Both the position numbers and the translations under genes were made by a program. Shown one piece after another: positions 22,343-59,952 of a DNA stretch of 64,000 bases. Each line of letters begins with the position of its first letter. The first letter of the stretch is position 1. The notes below the pieces were generated by a model. It was not told the DNA's origin, ran no database searches, and saw only the letters and a program-made list of their open reading frames with translations. Source of the stretch: an uncultured Candidatus Woesearchaeota archaeon (GTDB taxonomy: Archaea; Nanobdellota; Nanobdellia; Woesearchaeales; DSVV01); NCBI GenBank assembly GCA_963717515.1, contig OY970338.1:916861-980860 (forward strand), written 5' to 3'.

Positions 22343-23413
22343 ATGAATAATTTTAAATATGAATTAAAAAATCAATTCCTGATGGGCCTGACGAAAAAGC
22401 AGTACAACCAGATAAGGGATGAGCTTGACACATGCACAAGGCCGCTCTTCTATTTCCATGACGATCCTGACGGGCTATGCTCGTTTCTACAGTTCTATAA
22501 TTACATACATGAAGGCTACGGGGTCGTTGTCAAGAGCAGGCCGCTAATCGACATGAAGTTCCTTGGGAAGGTCGAGACCTACAATCCTGACAAGATATTC
22601 GTCCTTGACATCGCCGGCATTGAGCAGGAATTCGTGGATTCTGCAAAAAGGCCCCTTATCTGGGTCGACCATCATCCGCGCCAGGAGATCGAAAGGGTCA
22701 GGTACTTCAACCCCATGCCAAAGGGCAATCCCTGCGTGTCATACCTAACCTACAAGACCGTAAAAGAGAGCCTCTGGATTGCAATGGTAGGATGCATCAG
22801 CGACATGTACTGGCCAAAGGACCTGCTGGGTGAATTCAGGAAAAGATATCCAGGCCTTCTGCCGAAGAAAATCAAGGATGTGCGCACCGCCCTGTATGAA
22901 AGCGACGCAGGGAAGCTTGCCAGGATATTCTCTGCAGTGCTGAAAGGTACGAGCAGCGATGCGATGAAATATGTAAAGGCTCTTACAAGGGTGAAGGAGC
23001 CTGGGGAGATACTGGACCAGGAGGATGCAAGGGGCAAATTCATATTCAAGAGATACAAGGAGATAGACAGGGAATACCAGAAGCTCCTCAGGGCCGCTAA
23101 AAAGAAGGTGACTGATGACAGCATAGCACTTTTCATATACAGGGAAAGCAAGTTCGCTTTTTCCGGCGACATTGCAAATGAGATGCTCTACAGGTTCCCG
23201 GAAAAGCTCGTCATCATAGGAAGGGAGAAGAGCGGCGAGGTCAAGTGCAGCCTGCGCTCAAACGACCTGGTGCTTCCGCCGATGATAGGGAAGGCCCTTG
23301 TGGGATGCGAGGGATACGGTGGAGGACATGACCATGCGTGCGGGGCCTGCATAAAGCAGGAGGATTTCGAGAGGTTCATGGAGAATCTCAGGGGTCAACT
23401 GGATACAAATTGA
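22343..23413 (+). CDS. DHH/DHHA1-family phosphoesterase (NrnA/RecJ-like)
   Basis: Motifs HDDPDGLCS, VLDIAG, VDHH, and GGGHDHACGA (DHHA1). Confidence 0.75.
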   Translation: MNNFKYELKNQFLMGLTKKQYNQIRDELDTCTRPLFYFHDDPDGLCSFLQFYNYIHEGYGVVVKSRPLIDMKFLGKVETYNPDKIFVLDIAGIEQEFVDSAKRPLIWVDHHPRQEIERVRYFNPMPKGNPCVSYLTYKTVKESLWIAMVGCISDMYWPKDLLGEFRKRYPGLLPKKIKDVRTALYESDAGKLARIFSAVLKGTSSDAMKYVKALTRVKEPGEILDQEDARGKFIFKRYKEIDREYQKLLRAAKKKVTDDSIALFIYRESKFAFSGDIANEMLYRFPEKLVIIGREKSGEVKCSLRSNDLVLPPMIGKALVGCEGYGGGHDHACGACIKQEDFERFMENLRGQLDTN

Positions 23414-24558
23414 TAAAGGATTTCCCTGACTTTGTACGACGCAGCCATTTTTTTCAGGTTTTTTTCTATAATCTGTTTGGCTCTCTGCTTTGCCCCCTTA
23501 TATTTGTATTTCTCTCCGATCTCTTTAAAAGTATGCTCCCTGTCATAACCAATGGCGTATTTCATCTTAATCATGTCTCTTGCCTTTCTATCCAGCCTAT
23601 CCAATTCAGCTGTCAACTTTTCTGATAGGTCATTTCCGCAGACAGCAGAAAAAGGCGAGGGCATCTTATCATCTGCAATAATATCAATTCTTGGAACATC
23701 ATAATTTTTATGTGTTTTCTCATCAAGTGAAAAGGTTTGATTCATGAGTATCATATATTCCGACACTTTTTTTTTTGGCAGATTGGACAAATCCGCAAGC
23801 TCTCTAATTGTTGCATCCTCTCCTGTCCGGCGATAGATCTCATCCTTATACCGCATGATGGCAAAATATTTTTTTGCTGCATCAAGGCCCAACTTATCAT
23901 TACTTCCTTTGATAATGGCCATCATCATGTAGCATTTTATCCAATAGGCTGCGTATGTGCTGAATCTGTTGGTTTTTCTATTTTCGGCATTTTCCGCTGC
24001 TGAAAACAGGCCCCAATTGCCTTCATTCACAAGATCTGAAAACTCAATATTTGGGTTCTCTGACATATGATAATTTAGATTACTATAGCTCTTTGCGATG
24101 ATTTTCACAAGATCCTGCTGCGAGTCCACCAGGATATTGACATCCATCATTTTTTTGTCGACATAACTCTTCAGGGATTGTGCAGTGCCATTGAATGATT
24201 TTTTTGCATTCATCTCATTGACAATGGAATGCCCATATTCATTGTCGACAAGCAAAGGAAAAAGCCTGCTATTGACAATCTTCCTGATATAGTCCCCATA
24301 TTTCCCGTTCGATGAGCCATTATTGTTTAATTCTGAAGCAGAATTAAGATTTGGCCTGAAGATATCGATATGCGTTTTCCAATGGGGCCTGGTTCCTTCT
24401 AAATATTCCAATGGAGGATAAATAAAATCAGGAAATCTGGGAATACCCATTGCAATATTGAATATCTTCTCTTTTTCGATATTTTTATGCCTGATTATCT
24501 GCCTCTCCTGTTCCCGGCTGAGCCTTCTGTCCCCATTTTGCCTATAGTTTATCATCAT
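23395..24558 (-). CDS. sigma-70-family RNA polymerase sigma factor homolog (regions 2-4) with a unique N-terminal extension of about 150 aa
   Basis: Region 2 is DLVNEGNWGLFSAAENAENRKTNRFSTYAAYWIK (compare bacterial [17 protein letters not shown]....[12 protein letters not shown]). A region 3-like segment is TIRELADLSNLPKKKVSEYM..FSLDE. A region 4-like segment is LDRKARDMIKMKY.....TFKEIGEKY...GAKQRAKQIIEKNLKKM. Confidence 0.75.
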   Translation of the reverse strand: MMINYRQNGDRRLSREQERQIIRHKNIEKEKIFNIAMGIPRFPDFIYPPLEYLEGTRPHWKTHIDIFRPNLNSASELNNNGSSNGKYGDYIRKIVNSRLFPLLVDNEYGHSIVNEMNAKKSFNGTAQSLKSYVDKKMMDVNILVDSQQDLVKIIAKSYSNLNYHMSENPNIEFSDLVNEGNWGLFSAAENAENRKTNRFSTYAAYWIKCYMMMAIIKGSNDKLGLDAAKKYFAIMRYKDEIYRRTGEDATIRELADLSNLPKKKVSEYMILMNQTFSLDEKTHKNYDVPRIDIIADDKMPSPFSAVCGNDLSEKLTAELDRLDRKARDMIKMKYAIGYDREHTFKEIGEKYKYKGAKQRAKQIIEKNLKKMAASYKVREILYQFVSS

Positions 24559-24625
24559 TATATTTTTTCACTACTTGTGAAAGAAGAATATTTCATGATT
24601 TTATATATTTTTGCATATAGGTAAA

Positions 24626-24640
24626 CTTTATATATAAAAT
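24626..24640 (+). promoter_or_regulatory. TATA-box promoter element CTTTATATATAAAAT upstream of tRNA-Gly
   Basis: Centred about 27 nt upstream of the tRNA 5' end. An identical 15-mer lies upstream of psmB at 33316-33330. Confidence 0.45.
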
Positions 24641-24660
24641 CCAAGTCCTATCGATAATAC

Positions 24661-24799
24661 GCGTCGGTGGTCTAATGGCTACAACCTTTTATGTAATGCA
24701 ATAATCGGTTGCTGTAAATGACTGCGGCCTTCCATAATCCTACAGCAACATGCGGATTGAAGCGAGCCGCCTATCCGGGTTCAAATCCCGGCCGACGCA
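24661..24799 (+). tRNA. tRNA-Gly(UCC) with two introns (37 nt in the D-loop at 24682-24718; 30 nt at the canonical 37/38 site, 24735-24764)
   Basis: Hand-folded. Acceptor GCGTCGG/CCGACGC; D-stem GUCU/UGAC; anticodon stem GCGGC/GCCGC; loop CUUCCA[intron]A; T-arm CCGGG-TTCAAAT-CCCGG; discriminator A. The mature length adds up to 72 nt. No CCA is encoded. Confidence 0.8.
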
Positions 24800-25037
24800 T
24801 ATATTTTCTTTGATTATCCTGAATGTTTCCGGGATTTGAACACACTGCGAAAACCTTACTATTTTCTTGTGCCTCTCGTTGACTTCGTCAACTTCAAGGA
24901 ATCCCGGCCGACGCATATATTTTCTTTGATTAACCTGAATGTTTCCGGGATTTGAACACACTGCGAAAACCTTACTGTTTTCTTGTGCCTCTCGTTGACT
25001 TCGTCAACTTCAAGGAATCCCGGCCGACGCATATATT
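24784..25037 (+). repeat. tandem direct repeat, 116-bp period, 2 full units plus a 22-bp third core; each unit begins with the tRNA-Gly 3' end (AATCCCGGCCGACGCATATATT)
   Basis: The units at 24784-24899 and 24900-25015 differ at 2 positions. The third core is at 25016-25037. Each unit contains the hairpin GTTGAC-TTC-GTCAAC and an inverted copy of the T-arm (CCGGGATTTGAAC). Confidence 0.9.
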
Positions 25038-25054
25038 CCATTCCATAGGAGAAT

Positions 25055-26365
25055 TCACTTTCCAAGAACCACCCGTTCTATCTCATAAACGCCCAGATTC
25101 GGCGCCCCGAGATATCCATCCCAGCAGAGATTCGCAAGCCTGCCGTCATTGAGCCAGTCAAACAGCCACTCGCATATGTAATCCGGATTATCCTGCTCAA
25201 TCCCGAAGTTATGACGCAACAGCCATTGCTTGTTATAGATCTCGTGCGCCCCGACTGGCGGTGAAATGATGATGGGGATTCCAAGAGCTGTATAAAAACT
25301 GATCTCACTTGGTTTTGACCATAACATATCGGTTGTTTTCAGAGCTTCGTTGAACCTTTCAAAATAGGCTCTTTTGTTCAACGCATTGATCTGGCTTATC
25401 CCAATTCCTGCTTCCTTTTCAAGACCATAATCAAGTATCATCTTGTCGACCTTCTGTGAAATCTCAAGCCTTGTGCCTGTCACTACAAACAGCCTTATCT
25501 TCTTCTTTAATATCTCATTCTTCAGGCTGCTGATTATCCTTTCGACAATCTCACTCTGAGCACCAGCTCCTCCGATAGCGCACATGAGCGTCAGGGGATG
25601 ATCGCTTCTTTTCGGTATGTCTTGTTCCAGGTGCTTTTTCATGTGGGACCTGTACTTGTCGATGAAGCATCTGCCTGGATCAAGGTTGGCCAGTCTGTTC
25701 GCAACTGTCTTCTTGAGGATATTTTTCTCCCTTCCGCCGATCAGCTCTTTGGGAAGCGGAAACCCTGTGTCAAAAATCCTTGTCCTGGGCACACCGTATT
25801 GCATAAGCCTTTTTGTCGTGTGCTTTGTGGGGGAGAGATATCTTACCTTGGATCTTTTCGGGTCCTTGGCGACCCAGACCCTGCTGATATCGCTGTCTGT
25901 TACAACACAGTATACATCCTCTTTCCCATTGTAATCCGCAGCCAAAGCAGGGATGAAATAAGTAGTGATGAACGGACGCCTGTCTTTTTTAGTGAATTCA
26001 GAGACACTCCTGCAAAGCCCCTTCCTGATAAGCCTATCTATATAATTGACTTCAAAATTTGATTTTGACAGGTCCCTGAAAGGATAATAAGGGGATATGT
26101 GCTGCAGCTTATCATACATCTTAAAGACTGCCTTCCCTATTACTGGAAACCCTGTCATCCTGGATATCCAGTCATAGAACTTATGGGTCTTGCGCCAAAG
26201 CCTTTTTTCATCATCCTGGATGATCTTGTCGCTGTTGGCAGTGATGATCCGGTCATAAGCGATATCTTTCAGAGGGTATGCTGCCCTTGCATGGCCATAT
26301 CCCATATCGACAGAGATTACCCATGCCTTATTGAATTTCTGATTCGGCCTTTGATCTGCCATCAA
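25055..26365 (-). CDS. putative GT-B glycosyltransferase (MGDG synthase/UgtP/MurG-like, GT28-type)
   Basis: N-terminal VISVDMGYGHARAAYPL (G-x-GH-x2-AA motif), a mid-protein GGAGAQ, and C-terminal SKPSEISFYTALGIPIII..PVGAHE. Confidence 0.5.
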   Translation of the reverse strand: MMADQRPNQKFNKAWVISVDMGYGHARAAYPLKDIAYDRIITANSDKIIQDDEKRLWRKTHKFYDWISRMTGFPVIGKAVFKMYDKLQHISPYYPFRDLSKSNFEVNYIDRLIRKGLCRSVSEFTKKDRRPFITTYFIPALAADYNGKEDVYCVVTDSDISRVWVAKDPKRSKVRYLSPTKHTTKRLMQYGVPRTRIFDTGFPLPKELIGGREKNILKKTVANRLANLDPGRCFIDKYRSHMKKHLEQDIPKRSDHPLTLMCAIGGAGAQSEIVERIISSLKNEILKKKIRLFVVTGTRLEISQKVDKMILDYGLEKEAGIGISQINALNKRAYFERFNEALKTTDMLWSKPSEISFYTALGIPIIISPPVGAHEIYNKQWLLRHNFGIEQDNPDYICEWLFDWLNDGRLANLCWDGYLGAPNLGVYEIERVVLGK

Positions 26366-53502: not shown

Positions 53503-53913
53503 ATGAAGTACAGATTTTTCGAGCACACTGCTGATGCCAAGTTCCGGGCATACGGCAAAGACCATGAGGAGGCATTCTCGAATGCAGCGCTTGCATTGTC
53601 CTCTATCATGATTGGGCATGAGAAGGTAAAGCCTAAGGAAGAAGTAAAAATCAATGTCGAGGGCAGCGATAAGAAGTCGCTGCTTTACAATTTCCTAGAG
53701 GAGCTTCTTTTTTTGCTTGATACCAAAGGCTTCCTCCTGCACGATGTCAAGGAGCTCAGGATTGACGGGCTGAAGCTGAGTGCGGTGCTTTCTGGTGATA
53801 CTGATATTGGAAAGTATGCAGTCAATGGGGATGTCAAGGCTGTGACCTACAACCAGATGGAGATATCTGAACAGAAGGGGAAGTGCATGGTGCAGGTCGT
53901 AGTCGACATATGA
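53503..53913 (+). CDS. archease (RtcB activator)
   Basis: The hallmark N-terminus is MKYRFFEHTADAKFRAYG, with C-terminal VKAVTYNQMEI. Confidence 0.9.
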   Translation: MKYRFFEHTADAKFRAYGKDHEEAFSNAALALSSIMIGHEKVKPKEEVKINVEGSDKKSLLYNFLEELLFLLDTKGFLLHDVKELRIDGLKLSAVLSGDTDIGKYAVNGDVKAVTYNQMEISEQKGKCMVQVVVDI

Positions 53914-53962
53914 AGCAATCAAATGAAAGATATATAAATGAAGGAATTATTCTTCGAGCAAG

Positions 53963-55384
53963 ATGGAACTGAAGAAGATAGATGACAATACATGGGAGAT
54001 ACCCAAAAAGGGGGGTATGAGGGTGCCTGGAAGGGTGTTCGCCTCAGAAAGGCTTCTCGCTCTGATGAAGAAAGACATCACCCTCCAGCAGGTTGCGAAT
54101 GTCGCCCATCTCAAAGGCATAATCAGGCATTCCATCGCATGCCCTGACGCGCACCAGGGCTACGGGTTCAGCATAGGCGGAGTTGCAGCCTTCGATCTAG
54201 ACGAAGGCATAGTCAGCCCCGGCGGTGTCGGATACGACATCAACTGCGGGGTAAGGCTTCTGCGCACCGATTTCACAGAAAAAGAGGTCACGGGCAAAAG
54301 GAAAGAGCTTCTCGACGGGTTCTTCAAAGAAGTCCCTGCTGGTGTCGGAAAAGGCGGCCAGACAAGGGTCACGAGGGATATCCTGTCTGAGGTCATTGTA
54401 AAAGGGGCGGAATGGGCTTATAAGAACGGCTATGGTACCAAAGAGGATCTGCAGCGCACAGAGGAATACGGCAGGATGCCCAATGCAGACCCGAATGCTG
54501 TATCAGACAGGGCCATGAAAAGGGGCATGCCCCAGCTCGGCACGCTCGGCGCAGGCAATCATTTCCTGGAGATCCAGAAAGTCGACAGGATATATGATGA
54601 AAATACAGCAAAGAAGTTCGGCGTGACAAAGACAGGCCAGATAAATGTCATGATACACTGCGGAAGCAGGGGGCTTGGTCATCAGGTCGCCTCTGATTAT
54701 ATCCAGAGCATGGAGAGAAAATATGGTTTTGCTGGTTTGCCTGACCGGGAACTGGTCAATGCACCTATCCAGTCAGAGCTTGGACAAAATTACATGAAAG
54801 CAATGGCAGGAGCAATCAATTTCGCATTCGTGAACAGGCAGATGATTGCGCACTGGACCAGAGGTGTCTTTGAGAAGGTCATGGGTACGTCTGATGGCAT
54901 GGGGCAGGTCTATGATGTCTGCCACAATCTCGCGAAAATAGAGAAGCATGATATTGATGGCTCGCTTAAAAAAGTCTGCGTGCACAGGAAAGGCGCGACG
55001 AGGTCGTTCGGCCCGGGAAGAGATGAGATTCCTGAGGTCTACAGGGAAACCGGCCAGCCGGTGCTGATTCCCGGGAGCATGGGGACTGCATCATATGTGC
55101 TTGTGGGCACGAAAAAGGCTGAGGAGCTCACATTCGGCTCGACTGCGCACGGCGCAGGCAGGGTCATGTCAAGGCATGAGGCCATGAGGAACTACAGGGG
55201 CGAGCAGGTGACAAGTGACCTTGCAAAGAAGGGCATCATGATAAAGGGCGCATCCATGAAAGGGATTGCCGAGGAGACCTACCAGGCGTACAAGGATGTC
55301 GACGAGGTCGTCAGGGTCAGCCATGCGGCAGGCATCGGGAAACTGGTGTACAGGGTCGTGCCTATCGCTGTGATGAAGGGATAG
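53963..55384 (+). CDS. rtcB: RNA-splicing ligase RtcB
   Basis: Contains PDAHQGYGFSIGGV, GYDINCGVR, GAGNHFLE, HCGSRGLG, and the catalytic His region TAHGAGR. Confidence 0.95.
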   Translation: MELKKIDDNTWEIPKKGGMRVPGRVFASERLLALMKKDITLQQVANVAHLKGIIRHSIACPDAHQGYGFSIGGVAAFDLDEGIVSPGGVGYDINCGVRLLRTDFTEKEVTGKRKELLDGFFKEVPAGVGKGGQTRVTRDILSEVIVKGAEWAYKNGYGTKEDLQRTEEYGRMPNADPNAVSDRAMKRGMPQLGTLGAGNHFLEIQKVDRIYDENTAKKFGVTKTGQINVMIHCGSRGLGHQVASDYIQSMERKYGFAGLPDRELVNAPIQSELGQNYMKAMAGAINFAFVNRQMIAHWTRGVFEKVMGTSDGMGQVYDVCHNLAKIEKHDIDGSLKKVCVHRKGATRSFGPGRDEIPEVYRETGQPVLIPGSMGTASYVLVGTKKAEELTFGSTAHGAGRVMSRHEAMRNYRGEQVTSDLAKKGIMIKGASMKGIAEETYQAYKDVDEVVRVSHAAGIGKLVYRVVPIAVMKG

Positions 55385-57334: not shown

Positions 57335-57407
57335 TAGCCCTGCACGGATTTGAACCGTGGTCTCCAGGCCCAGAACCTAGAATGCTTGGCCACTACACCA
57401 CAGGGCT
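57335..57407 (-). tRNA. tRNA-Gln(CUG)
   Basis: Hand-folded. Acceptor AGCCCUG/CAGGGCU; anticodon arm CUAGG-UUCUGGG-CCUGG; T-arm CACGG-UUCAAAU-CCGUG. 73 nt, no intron. Confidence 0.85.
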
Positions 57408-57470
57408 GTTATCTTTTTGCTGTCTTTTCTTTGTACTTTTTATGCCGGCCTCGGTCTTGCCTTGAAAAAA

Positions 57471-57686
57471 CAAACGCCGACGCCCGGATTTGTATCGGGA
57501 ATCTCCGATTCCCGGAACCCCTCGTTCGCTCAGAGCGAACTTCAGGGAACCGGGATACTGCAAATAACAAACGCCGACGCCCGGATTTGTATCGGGAATC
57601 TCCGATTCCCGGAACCCCTCGTTCGCTCAGAGCGAACTTCAGGGAACCGGGATACTGCAAATAACAAACGCCGACGCCCGGATTTG
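57471..57686 (-). repeat. tandem direct repeat, 97-bp period: two identical units plus a third core that is the genuine 3' end of tRNA-Ser
   Basis: The units at 57471-57567 and 57568-57664 are identical by eye. Each carries CAAATCCGGGCGTCGGCGTTTG (tRNA-sense), a degenerate T-arm, and two perfect hairpins (CGGGAATC-TCC-GATTCCCG; GTTCGCTC-A-GAGCGAAC). Confidence 0.9.
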
Positions 57687-57751
57687 AACCGGGATATCCA
57701 GAGGAAACCGGCTTTCGAGGCCAGCGCAGTACCAGATTGTGCCACGTCGGC
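57669..57751 (-). tRNA. tRNA-Ser(CGA), long variable arm, no intron
   Basis: Hand-folded. Acceptor GCCGACG/CGUCGGC; anticodon arm CUGGC-CUCGAAA-GCCGG; 14-nt variable arm; T-arm CCCGG-UUCAAAU-CCGGG; discriminator G. 83 nt. Confidence 0.8.
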
Positions 57752-57880
57752 AATTTTGCTTATTTCGTACCATTTGGCTTTGACAAATGGTACTTGGGTG
57801 AATTTTCCCAAGTTTTTAAGCCTGAGGTCTTTTCCGAAGGCGGCAAAAAGCTGGCATGTGCCAGATTGTGCCACGTCGGC
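57752..57880 (-). repeat. hairpin-rich 109-nt segment bounded by a 20-nt direct duplication of the tRNA-Ser 5' end (57732-57751 equals 57861-57880)
   Basis: The exact 20-mer CCAGATTGTGCCACGTCGGC occurs twice, 129 bp apart. The insert holds a 10-bp/7-nt-loop hairpin (57767-57793) and a 6-bp hairpin (57793-57812). In tRNA sense, the upstream copy is followed by a hairpin plus T5. Confidence 0.85.
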
Positions 57881-57936
57881 GTCGTCTGTTTTTAATTGTC
57901 CTTCTGCAAAAACCGGCTCCTGCACAGGTGATCCTA

Positions 57937-58057
57937 TGCCCCAAACGGGATTCGAACCCGTGTCCCGGCCTGTCTTCCTTCGGGAAGACGCCAGGGAAAA
58001 CCCTGTTTTCCCGCTGTCGAGAGGGCCGGATGATTGGCCGGACTACACTATTGGGGC
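57937..58057 (-). tRNA. tRNA-Glu(CUC) with a 46-nt intron at the canonical 37/38 site (57972-58017)
   Basis: Hand-folded. Acceptor GCCCCAA/UUGGGGC; D-arm GUGUAGUCCGGCCAAUCAU, typical of archaeal tRNA-Glu; anticodon stem CGGCC/GGCCG; loop CUCUCG[intron]A; T-arm ACGGG-UUCGAAU-CCCGU. Confidence 0.8.
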
Positions 58058-58083
58058 CTGTAATTCCTGGCGCATGAAAATGA

Positions 58084-58200
58084 TGGGCTCAGGGGGCTTC
58101 GAACCCCCGACCATCCGGTTACCAACAAGCAACGCCTTGGAGGTTCCAAGACGAAGTCTTGATAAGAGCCGGATGCTCTACCAGGCTGAGCTATGAGCCC
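58084..58200 (-). tRNA. tRNA-Lys(CUU) with a 43-nt intron at the canonical 37/38 site (58120-58162)
   Basis: Hand-folded. Acceptor GGGCUCA/UGAGCCC; D-arm GCUC-AGCCUGGUA-GAGC; anticodon stem UCCGG/CCGGA; loop CUCUUA[intron]A; T-arm GGGGG-UUCGAAG-CCCCC. Confidence 0.85.
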
Positions 58201-58307: not shown

Positions 58308-58871
58308 CTATCTCTCAATCACCTGTGCCTCTGACATGTTCACTATGGTAGAAGGGGTCCCCCTTATCTCACCGACATCGATCATGAAATCAATATGACG
58401 CCTGATGTCATCATGCAGGGTCTCGAGCGATGTCATGAAAAGCCCTCCTGAAAGGTTCGCCGATGTCGTGATTATCGGAACCTCTGCAATCCTTGCAATC
58501 TCTGTGCACCAGTGGTCAGGGACCCGCACTCCAAGCGTCTCCCTGTCGCTCACGCTCGGAGCCACGCAGTGGGTGTTCTTCAGCGACAATATCAGGGTAT
58601 AGGGGCCAGGGAGCTTATTGAACCAGTCCTCCTCGCTGCTGTATATCTCGCAGTTCTCCCTAATCCAGCCCTTGTCAGGGACCATTACAGAGAAAGGCCT
58701 GTTGAAATTACCCTTTATCTTCCTTATCTTCCTCACAGCATCATCATCGAGCGCATTGCAGCCTATCCCGTATATGGTGTCTGTAGGATAGATGAATATC
58801 GCACCCCTGCGGATGTCTGATATCAGCCTCGCCTTCTTTATCCTGTACTCGTCTGTCGTATAAACCCTCAT
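58308..58871 (-). CDS. tsaC: L-threonylcarbamoyladenylate synthase, YrdC/TsaC-type (single domain)
   Basis: Contains IFIYPTDTIYGIGCNALDDDAVRKIRKIKGNFNRPFSVMV and TSANLSG. Confidence 0.85.
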   Translation of the reverse strand: MRVYTTDEYRIKKARLISDIRRGAIFIYPTDTIYGIGCNALDDDAVRKIRKIKGNFNRPFSVMVPDKGWIRENCEIYSSEEDWFNKLPGPYTLILSLKNTHCVAPSVSDRETLGVRVPDHWCTEIARIAEVPIITTSANLSGGLFMTSLETLHDDIRRHIDFMIDVGEIRGTPSTIVNMSEAQVIER

Positions 58872-58872
58872 C

Positions 58873-59952
58873 TTAATAGTCGGTGATCTTCTTTGTCCTG
58901 AGATAATTCACGATCGTCGTCGAGCCGTCGACGCCGCCTGTCAGCTTTGTCGTCGTGACGAACTTGTTGTCAGAGAGCTTCTGTATCCGTCTCTGGAAAG
59001 TCTTATAGGACGAACCGCCTCCCTCTTTCTGGAACAGCCTGAAGATATCGCCAATCTTCTGGCCTGAGTTATCCTTTACAATGTTGAGTATGAAGCGCGC
59101 CTCGTCATCAAGCTCATCAGAATTCTTGATGGATATCTCATCTATCTTGAGTATCGCCTGCTCAGCATGCTTGATAAGGATCTTCCTTGAGCTCTCTGCC
59201 TCGGCATTGTCGCCTGCTTCCTTCATAAGATGGAGCCCTGTCCTGATATCCTCCCTCTCAAATGTCTTCTCAATGATCTTTTCAAAGGCATCGTTCTCCC
59301 ATACCCCTGGATGGAATGCGAGCTCCTTTCTCTGCTCAAGGATGCCTCTTGTCTCACCCCTGCTGTAGGGGCGGAATTCCAGGATGTCCGGCGCGAGCCT
59401 CGACCTTATCCTGTCCTCGATGCCAAGCAGGAAATCCTTGTGGTTGGTTATGAGTATCATGCTCTTCCTGTAGATCTGTTCAAGTATGGTGTACATGAAG
59501 TCGAAATCCTCGACCTTGTCTATCTCGTCGAAGACAAAGACCCCTGATTTCCTGTTGATGATGTTTGCAATCACCTTGAAGAGCTCCTCTGTCTTCTTGT
59601 TCTGGGTGAATTTGTATCCGAGCAGGTCGCATAGCTCGACCATTATCTTGTATGTCGTATTCTTGTTCCAGCAATTGACGAACAATGTATAGGTCTCCTC
59701 ATCGCCCAGGTCTTCCTCATCCAATGCCTCGAGGAGCTTCTTCACTGCAATGGTCTTGCCTATCCCGGGCTTGCCGTAGAGGAAGACGTTCTTTCCGTTC
59801 CTGTTCTGGAGTAGCGGCGTGATGCAAGCTGCTATCTGCCTCTGCTCTTTTTCCCTGTATTTTAATACCTTCACCTGGTAGGAAAAATCCAGCGCGACAT
59901 CGTTCTTGAACAGGCTTTCGTCAGACTTGAGCATATCCTTGAATATCGACAT
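58873..59952 (-). CDS. cdc6: Orc1/Cdc6 replication initiator
   Basis: AAA+ Walker A LYGKPGIGKT, Walker B VFVFDEID, sensor regions, and a C-terminal winged helix (YKTFQRRIQKLSDNKFV). Confidence 0.9.
   Translation of the reverse strand: MSIFKDMLKSDESLFKNDVALDFSYQVKVLKYREKEQRQIAACITPLLQNRNGKNVFLYGKPGIGKTIAVKKLLEALDEEDLGDEETYTLFVNCWNKNTTYKIMVELCDLLGYKFTQNKKTEELFKVIANIINRKSGVFVFDEIDKVEDFDFMYTILEQIYRKSMILITNHKDFLLGIEDRIRSRLAPDILEFRPYSRGETRGILEQRKELAFHPGVWENDAFEKIIEKTFEREDIRTGLHLMKEAGDNAEAESSRKILIKHAEQAILKIDEISIKNSDELDDEARFILNIVKDNSGQKIGDIFRLFQKEGGGSSYKTFQRRIQKLSDNKFVTTTKLTGGVDGSTTIVNYLRTKKITDY

What the first reader, a model, noticed from the sequence alone, without database searches (positions are those of the whole stretch)
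24784..25037. tRNA-Gly is followed by a tandem array of 116-bp units, each re-starting with the tRNA's own 3' end (three att-like cores, two units)
The last 16 nt of tRNA-Gly plus 6 trailing nt (AATCCCGGCCGACGCATATATT) occur three times with an exact 116-bp period, at 24784, 24900 and 25016. The two intervening units differ at only 2 positions. Each unit is highly structured. It has a perfect hairpin GTTGAC-TTC-GTCAAC. It also has an inverted copy of the T-arm (CCGGGATTTGAAC at 24829-24841) that can pair with the genuine T-arm at 24779-24791. Duplicated tRNA 3' ends are the classic footprint of site-specific integration (attL/attR). Here, however, the 'elements' between cores are only about 94 bp long, and no integrase is present in the 64 kb. 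N units flanked by N+1 cores is what tandem integration of a miniature, non-autonomous att-carrying element would give. Replication slippage is an alternative. A strikingly similar architecture occurs at tRNA-Ser, 33 kb away.
Basis: partly seen in the sequence, partly recalled or inferred. Interest (0 to 1): 0.68.

Follow-up and report, generated by a model that had tools for sequence, protein, structure and literature searches.

The report
tRNA-end tandem repeat, tyrT-like
Just after an intron-containing tRNA-Gly gene of a DPANN archaeon, a 116-bp stretch that restarts with the tRNA's own last 16 bases is repeated twice; this is a real example of a recurring kind of tRNA-linked repeat (E. coli tyrT/RtT is the classic case), and nothing shows it to be an active miniature integrating element.

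Summary
The 22-nt core occurs three times at an exact 116-bp period. The two units differ at 2 positions. Each unit holds a 13-nt inverted T-arm copy and a perfect hairpin. A second array of the same design (97 bp) follows tRNA-Ser. The tRNA is a genuine tRNA-Gly(UCC) with two introns, in a Woesearchaeota-like DPANN genome. I found no integrase, Cas1 or transposase in the 64 kb. I found no copy of the unit elsewhere in the window or in the viral, phage, plasmid and genome collections searched.

The architecture is not unique. E. coli tyrV is followed by 178-bp units that restart at the same T-loop position and also hold an inverted T-arm copy; their number ranges from 1 to 9 per genome. Two other DPANN genomes and many haloarchaea carry such units after tRNA-Gly. 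In fetched loci, 13 of 70 tRNAs have a 3'-end copy downstream and 0 of 70 upstream. The haloarchaeal units show compensatory base-pair changes.

Best reading: a chromosomal, non-coding repeat built partly from the tRNA gene's own 3' end and doubled by recombination or slippage between cores. Tandem integration of a mini-element is not supported. A functional trailer RNA is not excluded.

The parts
24661..24799 (+). tRNA-Gly(UCC) gene with two introns (about 24679-24718 in the D-loop; about 24734-24765 at 37/38)
   Evidence: Rfam tRNA 40.6 bits, E = 3.6e-7, insertions of 40 and 32 nt. The cloverleaf is the minimum-free-energy fold, z = -3.8. Missed by default ARAGORN and by Rfam at gathering threshold.
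24784..24805 (+). Core 1: last 16 nt of the tRNA (from T-loop nt 58) plus 6 nt of trailer
   Evidence: Exact 22-mer, 3 copies, 0 expected.
24784..24899 (+). Repeat unit 1 (116 bp)
   Evidence: Tandem Repeats Finder and the repeat finder.
24829..24841 (+). Inverted copy of the T-arm (CCGGGATTTGAAC), unit 1
   Evidence: 100% complementary to 24779-24791; 0/1000 shuffles reach the score.
24878..24892 (+). Perfect hairpin GTTGAC-TTC-GTCAAC, unit 1, 7 nt before the next core
24900..25015 (+). Repeat unit 2 (116 bp; differs from unit 1 at the positions matching 24817 and 24861). It starts with core 2 (24900-24921) and holds the inverted T-arm copy at 24945-24957 and the hairpin at 24994-25008.
25016..25037 (+). 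Core 3, the terminal solo core. It lies 18 nt from the stop codon of the convergent DUF6938 gene (25055-26365, minus strand).
   Evidence: The junction is present in an independent short-read contig.
57668..57752 (-). tRNA-Ser(CGA), anchor of the second array
   Evidence: ARAGORN and Rfam.
57465..57694 (-). Second array: 97-bp period, two identical units. Three 24-nt cores CAAATCCGGGCGTCGGCGTTTGTT at 57663-57686, 57566-57589 and 57469-57492. Each unit holds a direct T-arm half TATCCCGGTTC (57644-57654, 57547-57557) and two hairpins (57621-57637 and 57593-57611; 57524-57540 and 57496-57514).
   Evidence: Direct 11-nt tRNA piece: 1/1000 shuffles. Fold z = -4.75.
57858..57880 (-). 23-nt copy (1 mismatch) of the 5' end of tRNA-Ser, 129 nt upstream of the gene, followed by a hairpin and T5
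   Evidence: the repeat finder D3.

Best explanation
The array is a chromosomal, non-coding, tRNA-anchored tandem repeat of the same architectural kind as the E. coli tyrT/RtT repeat. It is not a set of integrated mini-elements.

Each 116-bp unit is a patchwork. It has a direct copy of the tRNA-Gly gene's last 16 nt plus 6 nt of trailer. It has an inverted 13-nt copy of the T-arm. The rest is hairpin-rich filler.

Step 1 (inferred). At some point a second copy of the gene's 3' end came to lie about 100 bp downstream of the tRNA. I think this was most likely a local rearrangement of the gene's own 3' region: a partial duplication with template switching at the palindromic T-arm. A decayed attR left by an integrated element is the main alternative for this step.

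Step 2 (inferred from near-identity). Unequal recombination or replication slippage between the two 22-nt cores doubled the unit. That gives 2 units and 3 cores. The same happened independently at tRNA-Ser.

Today the units are probably transcribed only as read-through trailer of the tRNA. Each core carries its own T-rich stretch, so the units may act as back-up terminators. A selected RNA role is possible but not shown.
For: - The repeat is real and exact.
- The two Gly units differ at 2 of 116 positions and the two Ser units at none. The last duplication step was therefore recent and local in both arrays.
- The Gly and Ser units share no significant similarity. Each array is specific to its own tRNA.
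- Unit interiors carry further pieces of the same tRNA gene. Window Gly: inverted 13-nt T-arm, 0/1000 shuffles. Window Ser: direct 11 nt, 1/1000. L038: 19 of 21 nt of the tRNA's own anticodon-loop/intron region, 0/1000, plus an inverted T-arm, 3/1000. E. coli tyrV unit: inverted T-arm 19 of 22, 0/1000.
- The E. coli tyrV repeat restarts at the same T-loop position (AATCC...). Its copy number is 1-9, median 2, in 4,700 complete genomes. This shows that arrays of this design expand and contract.
- The design recurs. In fetched archaeal loci, 13 of 70 tRNAs have a 14-nt 3'-end copy within 400 nt downstream and 0 of 70 have one upstream.
- Two other DPANN genomes, L038 and L067, have one unit after tRNA-Gly(UCC) with the same junction AAGG|AATCCCGG. 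In L067 the copy follows that genome's own acceptor variant, CCGATGC.
- No integrase, Cas1 or transposase domain was found among window ORFs of 180 aa or more.
- No extrachromosomal or dispersed copy was found.
Against: - Simple slippage cannot create the first extra core. The identity ends sharply 6 nt past the tRNA at the last copy, which looks more like an att boundary than a duplication that should carry the whole trailer.
- tRNA-Gly is a proven integration target in haloarchaea (PMC7002104), and partial tRNA genes from integration are pervasive (PMC9897764).
- Cores stay perfect while interiors diverge. In L050 all four cores are identical, although its two type A units look only about 65% alike by eye (not computed).
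- Haloarchaeal units show compensatory changes in 15 of 43 pairs. This hints at selection on structure, meaning a function and not a passive relic.
- The rest of the 1.84-Mb genome could not be searched. A recombinase or further copies elsewhere are therefore not excluded.
- No transcript data are available.
Confidence: 0.5

Rival explanations
1. First reader's model. Each 94-bp unit is a miniature, non-autonomous att-carrying element. A recombinase encoded elsewhere in the genome integrated it twice in tandem into the tRNA 3' end, and each event added one core.
For: N units with N+1 exact cores that begin in the T-loop. Two tRNAs in one genome show it. Casposons and integrative elements are known to pile up in tandem at tRNA 3' ends, sharing duplicated target sequences (PMC4779613; PMC8371274). 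Haloarchaeal arrays mix two unit types in different orders: L050 reads A-B-A', L036 reads B-A.
Against: A 116-bp circle is too small for a plausible excised intermediate (my inference). No recombinase, Cas1 or transposase is recognisable in 64 kb. No second locus and no extrachromosomal copy was found. The Gly and Ser units are unrelated, so two separate mini-elements would be needed. The termini share only about 6 bp of inverted complementarity. Interiors contain the host tRNA's own pieces, including its intron in L038.
Confidence: 0.1
2. The unit is the scar of a full-size integrated virus or plasmid. Core 1 would be attL and the next core attR, and deletions removed all but about 94 bp of the element. 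The scar was later doubled by recombination between the cores.
For: The sharp identity block runs from the T-loop to 6-8 nt past the gene, typical of tRNA att sites. The Ser unit keeps a T-arm-like dyad, CCCGA-TACAAAT-CCGGG, immediately left of the core, as expected of an attP core. In L038 the second copy is a decayed whole 3' half, as after a crossover in the anticodon loop. A 7.5-kb integrase element duplicates part of tRNA-Gly(GCC) in Halobacterium salinarum 91-R6 (PMC7002104). Distal cores in haloarchaeal arrays are more decayed than proximal ones.
Against: No integrase remnant is present. The inverted T-arm copy recurs in unrelated systems (window, L038, haloarchaea, E. coli), which a random deletion remnant of foreign DNA does not predict. 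Similar remnant sizes of 50-220 bp in many lineages are odd for random deletion.
Confidence: 0.25
3. The units are functional RNA modules co-transcribed with the tRNA. The anti-T-arm segment pairs with the next pseudo-T-arm. The tRNA-like 3' end and T-rich tail would then serve as processing or termination signals, or the unit RNA itself would be a small RNA, as RtT is in E. coli.
For: Nine haloarchaeal units share a structure with 94% of cells paired and 15 of 43 pairs changed on both sides. No shuffle reached this (0/500), and slid controls gave about 35% paired. The helix between the inverted T-loop and the next direct T-loop extends into covarying pairs. G-U exceeds A-C 10 to 4 on the tRNA strand. 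The trailer, anti-T-arm and AAGG+core islands are conserved between the window and L038 although the rest has diverged. Cores stay perfect. The Ser unit folds far better than shuffles, z = -4.75. E. coli units are annotated as RtT sRNA.
Against: Most DPANN and Methanosarcinales tRNA-Gly loci with the same 3' end lack any unit, so it is not essential. One of the two Gly differences (24817) breaks a predicted pair. The Gly interior folds only marginally better than shuffles, z = -1.9. No Rfam family matches. Template-switch correction of quasi-palindromes can mimic covariation without selection (established mutational mechanism). The G-U excess is not significant. No expression data exist.
Confidence: 0.25
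4. Assembly artefact: a collapsed or expanded repeat in the long contig.
For: Short-read contigs break at the array, so the exact copy number rests on the long assembly only.
Against: Both outer junctions (tRNA to unit, and unit end to last core to the downstream gene) are present in independent short-read contigs. One contig stops exactly before the T/A difference, which implies that both unit variants exist in the reads. A second array of the same design lies 33 kb away.
Confidence: 0.04

Closest known systems
E. coli tyrT-tyrV operon 178-bp repeat (RtT sRNA / rttR, tpr). The original description (Egan and Landy 1978) is cited from memory; the locus was re-examined here.
   Same: Tandem units directly abut a tRNA gene. 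Each unit restarts with the tRNA's 3' end beginning at 'AAT' of the T-loop, and the array ends in an extra partial core (3.1 copies). The unit interior holds an inverted T-arm copy, 19 of 22 nt. Copy number varies from 1 to 9 among genomes.
   Different: It is bacterial and follows tRNA-Tyr, with a 178-bp unit. There is no sequence or covariance-model similarity to the window units. The E. coli core includes the encoded CCA. The E. coli unit is known to be transcribed and is annotated as an sRNA and a small ORF; nothing is known for the archaeal units.
attL/attR partial tRNA gene copies left by integrative elements (tyrosine recombinases) in archaea
   Same: Direct repeats identical to the 3' part of a tRNA gene. 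tRNA-Gly and tRNA-Ser are typical targets. Tandem pile-ups occur (PMC8371274; PMC7002104; PMC9897764).
   Different: Known cases bracket kilobases of element DNA (7.5-23 kb in the papers read), usually with an integrase. Here 94 and 73 bp lie between cores, with no integrase and near-identical units. The interiors are partly made of the tRNA gene itself.
Casposon target-site duplications at tRNA 3' ends (Methanosarcina)
   Same: The insertion duplicates a short target at the 3' end of a tRNA gene. Tandem elements are separated by one shared duplicated target. The 14-bp target begins with CGCA and ends AT-rich (PMC4779613), and the window core ends ...CGCATATATT.
   Different: There is no Cas1 and there are no terminal inverted repeats beyond about 6 bp. 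The core is 22-24 nt and starts in the T-loop. The units are about 100 bp, not kilobases.
Units after tRNA-Gly in haloarchaea and other DPANN genomes
   Same: The tRNA-Gly 3' end is repeated 50-240 nt downstream. An inverted T-loop copy lies between the copies, in hairpin-rich spacers, and arrays hold up to 4 cores.
   Different: Haloarchaeal units are GC-rich, 130-190 nt, of two alternating types, and not alignable to the window unit. Only L038 and L067 share the AAGG|AATCCCGG junction with the window.

Membership tests
Integrated element bounded by attL/attR in a tRNA gene | Direct repeats identical to the 3' part of the tRNA gene | tested here: met
   22-nt core, three copies; 24-nt core, three copies at tRNA-Ser.
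Integrated element bounded by attL/attR in a tRNA gene | Recombinase (integrase) gene within or next to the element | tested here: not met
   No ORF lies between the cores. Pfam scans of window ORFs of 180 aa or more show no integrase, Cas1 or transposase. Several ORFs have no Pfam hit. The genome outside the window was not searched.
Integrated element bounded by attL/attR in a tRNA gene | Element-sized foreign DNA between the repeats | tested here: not met
   Only 94 bp (Gly) and 73 bp (Ser) lie between cores. The interior is partly tRNA-derived.
Integrated element bounded by attL/attR in a tRNA gene | Matching attP on a virus or plasmid | tested here: inconclusive
   No exact hit in IMG/VR viral contigs. 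No blastn hit in plasmid records, and only a chance-level 26-nt hit (E = 0.4) in phage records. DPANN mobile elements are poorly sampled.
tyrT/RtT-type tRNA-linked tandem repeat (architecture) | Tandem units abut the tRNA gene, each restarting with its 3' end from the T-loop, ending in an extra core | tested here: met
   compared with E. coli.
tyrT/RtT-type tRNA-linked tandem repeat (architecture) | Copy number polymorphic among strains | not testable with these tools
   No close relative is on hand: the best non-self protein hit is 60% identical. The feature is met in E. coli, 1-9 copies.
Rfam RtT RNA family (homology) | Match to the family covariance model | tested here: not met
   cmscan of 24550-25150 at E up to 10 lists only the tRNA and chance hits. 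The array is an analogue, not a homologue.
Casposon or casposon-derived element | Cas1 casposase, terminal inverted repeats, 14-15-bp target duplication | tested here: not met
   No Cas1. The termini pair over only about 6 bp. The core is 22-24 nt.
MITE | Terminal inverted repeats and multiple dispersed copies | tested here: not met
   No other copy in the window or in the collections searched. The whole genome was not available.
Split or permuted tRNA gene piece | A tRNA half with a leader or trailer that pairs with a partner half to form a bulge-helix-bulge site | tested here: not met
   The intact tRNA is present. The units hold only 16 nt of the 3' end. Predicted folds show no bulge-helix-bulge at the junction. 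A partner elsewhere in the genome could not be searched.
CRISPR array | Identical repeats separated by different spacers | tested here: not met
   The 'spacers' are 98-100% identical to each other.

The most novel reading that the evidence does not exclude
Repeats that restart with a tRNA's own 3' end and carry an inverted T-arm copy ('anti-T-arm' followed by a pseudo-T-arm and acceptor 3' strand) may form one cross-domain class. It would include E. coli tyrT/RtT, tRNA-Gly in haloarchaea, and tRNA-Gly and tRNA-Ser in DPANN archaea. Two readings fit. The T-arm hairpin may generate and keep regenerating the units by template switching. Or the units may be selected structured trailer RNAs, in which the anti-T-arm and the tRNA-like end control processing or termination of the tRNA transcript.
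Probability: 0.25. Interest if true: 0.7.

Novelty: new variant of a known kind. Interest (0 to 1): 0.45.

Why it matters
Practical points:
- The tRNA-Gly gene, with two introns, is missed by default tRNA finders.
- The arrays break short-read assemblies.
- Solo tRNA 3'-end copies like these can be mistaken for prophage or island boundaries.

Biological points:
- The same odd design turns up after tRNA genes in a DPANN archaeon, in haloarchaea and in E. coli. Units restart in the T-loop and hold an inverted T-arm copy.
- This suggests a general process. Either the palindromic T-arm seeds local duplications, or a trailer RNA with a tRNA-like end does something useful.
- If the second is true, the long-unexplained E. 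coli RtT repeat would gain archaeal counterparts, and covariation data to work from.

Tried and rejected
- Exact scan of one genome per species for the unit interior: no hit. The source genome is not in that collection.
- Three scans of viral contigs (Gly core with trailer, Gly interior, Ser core with trailer): no hits.
- blastn of both arrays and of a haloarchaeal unit against phage and plasmid records: one chance-level 26-nt hit (E = 0.4) in the phage records, otherwise nothing.
- Synteny approach through the neighbouring DUF6938 protein: relatives are at most 60% identical and the tRNA is not adjacent in them. Orthologous loci could not be compared.
- Rfam with lax thresholds on the array and on seven related loci: only tRNAs and an L4 leader.
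- Local alignment of the unit interiors to the tRNA bodies and to each other: nothing significant beyond the T-arm pieces.
- Casposon-derived element idea: rejected for lack of Cas1 and of inverted repeats.
- Split-tRNA or trans-splicing idea: rejected. An intact gene is present and the folds show no bulge-helix-bulge site.
- Pseudo-tRNA on the minus strand of haloarchaeal units: considered by eye. Acceptor pairing is inconsistent between species and Rfam finds nothing.
- Small-protein idea: a 19-aa ORF, MFPGFEHTAKTLLFSCASR, starts at 24823 and 24939, and the A/G difference is synonymous in it. There is no ribosome-binding site and no counterpart in L038 or L067, so I did not take it further.
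- Literature searches found no description of such arrays in archaea.

Full report
**What is in the sequence.**
The region 24661-25037 was read directly. The 22-mer AATCCCGGCCGACGCATATATT occurs at 24784, 24900 and 25016 and nowhere else in the window, even with 3 mismatches; shuffles give none. Tandem Repeats Finder reports period 116, 2.2 copies, 98% matches. The two full units differ only at 24817 (T/A) and 24861 (A/G). Each unit holds CCGGGATTTGAAC (24829-24841, 24945-24957), a perfect inverted copy of the T-arm at 24779-24791. Each also holds the hairpin GTTGAC-TTC-GTCAAC (24878-24892, 24994-25008).

**The tRNA.**
ARAGORN in default mode and Rfam at gathering threshold find no tRNA here. 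With laxer filters Rfam gives a full-length tRNA at 24661-24799 (40.6 bits, E = 3.6e-7). It has insertions of 40 nt in the D-loop and 32 nt in the anticodon loop, and the anticodon is UCC. The cloverleaf is also the minimum-free-energy fold. 'aragorn -i' finds the same span but mislabels it Cys. So this is tRNA-Gly(UCC) with two introns. The repeated core is its last 16 nt, starting at 'AAT' of the T-loop, plus 6 nt of trailer. Because the copies include trailer and no CCA, they derive from the gene and not from mature tRNA (inference).

**Organism and reality of the array.**
The neighbouring 435-aa DUF6938 protein is 100% identical to a protein on a 1.84-Mb contig. Its next best relatives are at most 60% identical, and those that are named are mostly Woesearchaeota or Nanoarchaeota. 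No close relative is available. Two short-read contigs of run ERR11571143 cover the flanks. One ends 8 nt upstream of the last core. The other runs from the tRNA into unit 1 and stops just before the T/A difference. This is the expected behaviour of a de Bruijn assembly at a real repeat with two unit variants. The exact copy number rests on the long contig.

**The second array.**
tRNA-Ser(CGA) (57752-57668, minus strand) is followed by a 97-bp period with 2.4 copies. The 24-nt core CAAATCCGGGCGTCGGCGTTTGTT occurs three times and the two units are identical. Each Ser unit holds a direct copy of the T-arm 5' half (TATCCCGGTTC; 1/1000 shuffles), two hairpins, and a T-arm-like dyad just left of the core. 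A 23-nt copy of the 5' end of tRNA-Ser lies 129 nt upstream. The other tRNAs in the window have no end copies. The Gly and Ser units are not significantly similar.

**Test of the mini-element idea.**
- Pfam scans of the flanking genes and of window ORFs of 180 aa or more show ordinary cellular genes and no integrase, Cas1 or transposase. Some ORFs have no hit.
- The units have no further copy in the window.
- They have no exact match in one genome per species or in viral contigs.
- blastn against phage and plasmid records gave only a chance-level 26-nt hit (E = 0.4) in the phage records.
- Nothing therefore points to mobility, although the rest of the genome could not be searched.

**Related loci.**
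A scan for the tRNA's last 20 nt returned 58 archaeal loci. In 13-14 of them, extra copies of the 16-nt core lie 50-500 nt downstream of a single tRNA-Gly gene. Most of these loci are haloarchaeal, with up to four cores (L050). One is a Micrarchaeota locus (L035) and one a Woesearchaeota locus (L038). Where an inverted T-loop copy (GGATTTGAA) is present, a direct core nearly always follows, usually 50-75 nt later.

L038 has the same order of parts as the window unit: core, TATATTTTCTT trailer, GGGATTTGAAC, hairpins, AAGG, core. It also holds a 19-of-21 copy of its own tRNA's anticodon-loop/intron region.

A metagenome scan for the junction AAGG|AATCCCGGCYGAYGCA gave one further low-GC, DPANN-like case, L067. 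There the downstream copy follows that genome's own acceptor variant.

Over all fetched loci, 13 of 70 tRNAs have a 14-nt 3'-end copy within 400 nt downstream and 0 of 70 have one upstream. That sample is enriched for tRNA-Gly but was not selected for duplicates.

**The bacterial precedent.**
From memory, the E. coli tyrT locus carries a 178-bp repeat with the tRNA-Tyr 3' end. I checked it. In K-12 the repeat has period 178 and 3.1 copies, directly after tyrV. Each unit restarts with AATCCTTCCCCCACCACCA, the same T-loop position as in the window. Its interior holds an inverted T-arm copy (19 of 22; 0/1000 shuffles). Among 4,700 complete genomes the number of units ranges from 1 to 9, median 2, and the units are annotated as RtT sRNA. 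The window units do not match the Rfam model. The relation is one of architecture, not homology.

**Structure in the haloarchaeal units.**
Nine haloarchaeal units align and share a structure. One hairpin is made of the trailer and its inverted copy. A long helix pairs the inverted T-loop with the next direct T-loop and then extends further. Overall 94% of cells are paired and 15 of 43 pairs show changes on both sides. No shuffle reaches this (0/500), and slid controls give about 35% paired. G-U exceeds A-C 10 to 4 on the tRNA strand, which is not significant.

This may reflect selection on an RNA or DNA structure. It may also reflect template-switch correction of quasi-palindromes, a known mutational process that produces concerted changes without selection.

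In the window, the Gly interior folds only slightly better than shuffles (z = -1.9), and one of the two differences between units breaks a predicted pair. The Ser unit folds much better than shuffles (z = -4.75).

**Interpretation.**
Shown:
- The arrays are real.
- Each array is specific to its own tRNA.
- The arrays are recent in their last step.
- They are partly built from the tRNA gene's own 3' region, in both orientations.
- They are not associated with a recognisable recombinase or with other copies.
- They are one instance of a design found in several archaeal lineages and in E. coli, where copy number is variable.

Inferred:
- The two-unit state arose by unequal recombination or slippage between the 22-24-nt cores.
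- The first extra core arose either by a local rearrangement seeded by the T-arm palindrome or as a decayed attR.
- The sharp end of identity at the last core, and the documented use of tRNA-Gly by integrase-bearing elements (PMC7002104; PMC9897764), keep the attR option alive.
- The inverted T-arm copies in unrelated systems, and the intron piece in L038, favour local origin.
- A selected RNA role is possible and would be the most interesting outcome. It needs transcript data.

**Verdict.**
The array is best filed as a new archaeal variant of the tyrT-type tRNA-linked tandem repeat. Interest is moderate. It would be higher if the cross-domain 'anti-T-arm' design proves to be functional or self-propagating.

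Noticed in passing
window 24661-24799: tRNA-Gly(UCC) carries two introns (D-loop and 37/38). Default ARAGORN and Rfam at gathering threshold miss it, and 'aragorn -i' mislabels it Cys(aca). The 3' part of intron 1 (GGTTGCTGTA) is complementary to the 5' part of intron 2 (TACAGCAAC).
   Followed up: partly
window 57858-57880 (-): A 23-nt copy (1 mismatch) of the 5' end of tRNA-Ser lies 129 nt upstream of the gene. It is followed by the hairpin CTGGCA-CA-TGCCAG and TTTTT. So tRNA-Ser has partial copies on both sides.
   Followed up: partly
window 23395-24558 (-): The 387-aa ORF just upstream of the tRNA-Gly gene matches bacterial Sigma-70 region 3 (E = 2e-9) and, weakly, regions 2 and 4. That is unexpected in an archaeal genome.
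   Followed up: no
window 53503-55384 (+): Genes for archease and the tRNA-splicing ligase RtcB lie about 2 kb from a cluster of four tRNA genes (Thr, Glu, Ser, Gln; 57335-58200). Two of these carry introns of about 45 nt. tRNA-Glu(CUC) at 57937-58057 is called only by 'aragorn -i'.
   Followed up: no
window 58873-59952 (-): An Orc1/Cdc6-like AAA+ gene and a Sua5/YrdC gene (58308-58871) flank the tRNA cluster. A replication origin may be near. No origin repeats were sought.
   Followed up: no
L050 7460-8000; also L036, L046, L063, L040, L048, L061: Haloarchaeal tRNA-Gly(GCC) genes are followed by arrays of two alternating unit types. Type A is about 170 nt with an inverted T-loop. Type B is about 50 nt. 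Arrays hold up to four perfect cores. Type A shows strong covariation. The tRNA lies about 0.5-0.65 kb from an L4 ribosomal-protein leader (Rfam RF03135) in at least four of these loci.
   Followed up: partly
L035 2637-2877 (-): A Micrarchaeota tRNA-Gly(GCC) is predicted with a 118-nt intron. A second copy of its last 14 nt lies only 49 nt downstream, preceded by a GC-rich palindrome.
   Followed up: no
window 24823-24882 and 24939-24998 (+): Each Gly unit contains a 19-codon ORF, MFPGFEHTAKTLLFSCASR. The A/G difference between the units is synonymous in it (CTA/CTG). There is no ribosome-binding site and no counterpart in L038 or L067.
   Followed up: partly
L068 (E. coli K-12, NC_000913 1286300-1288000): The number of 178-bp RtT units after tyrV ranges from 1 to 9 (median 2) among 4,700 complete E. 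coli genomes. 18 places lie on plasmids.
   Followed up: partly
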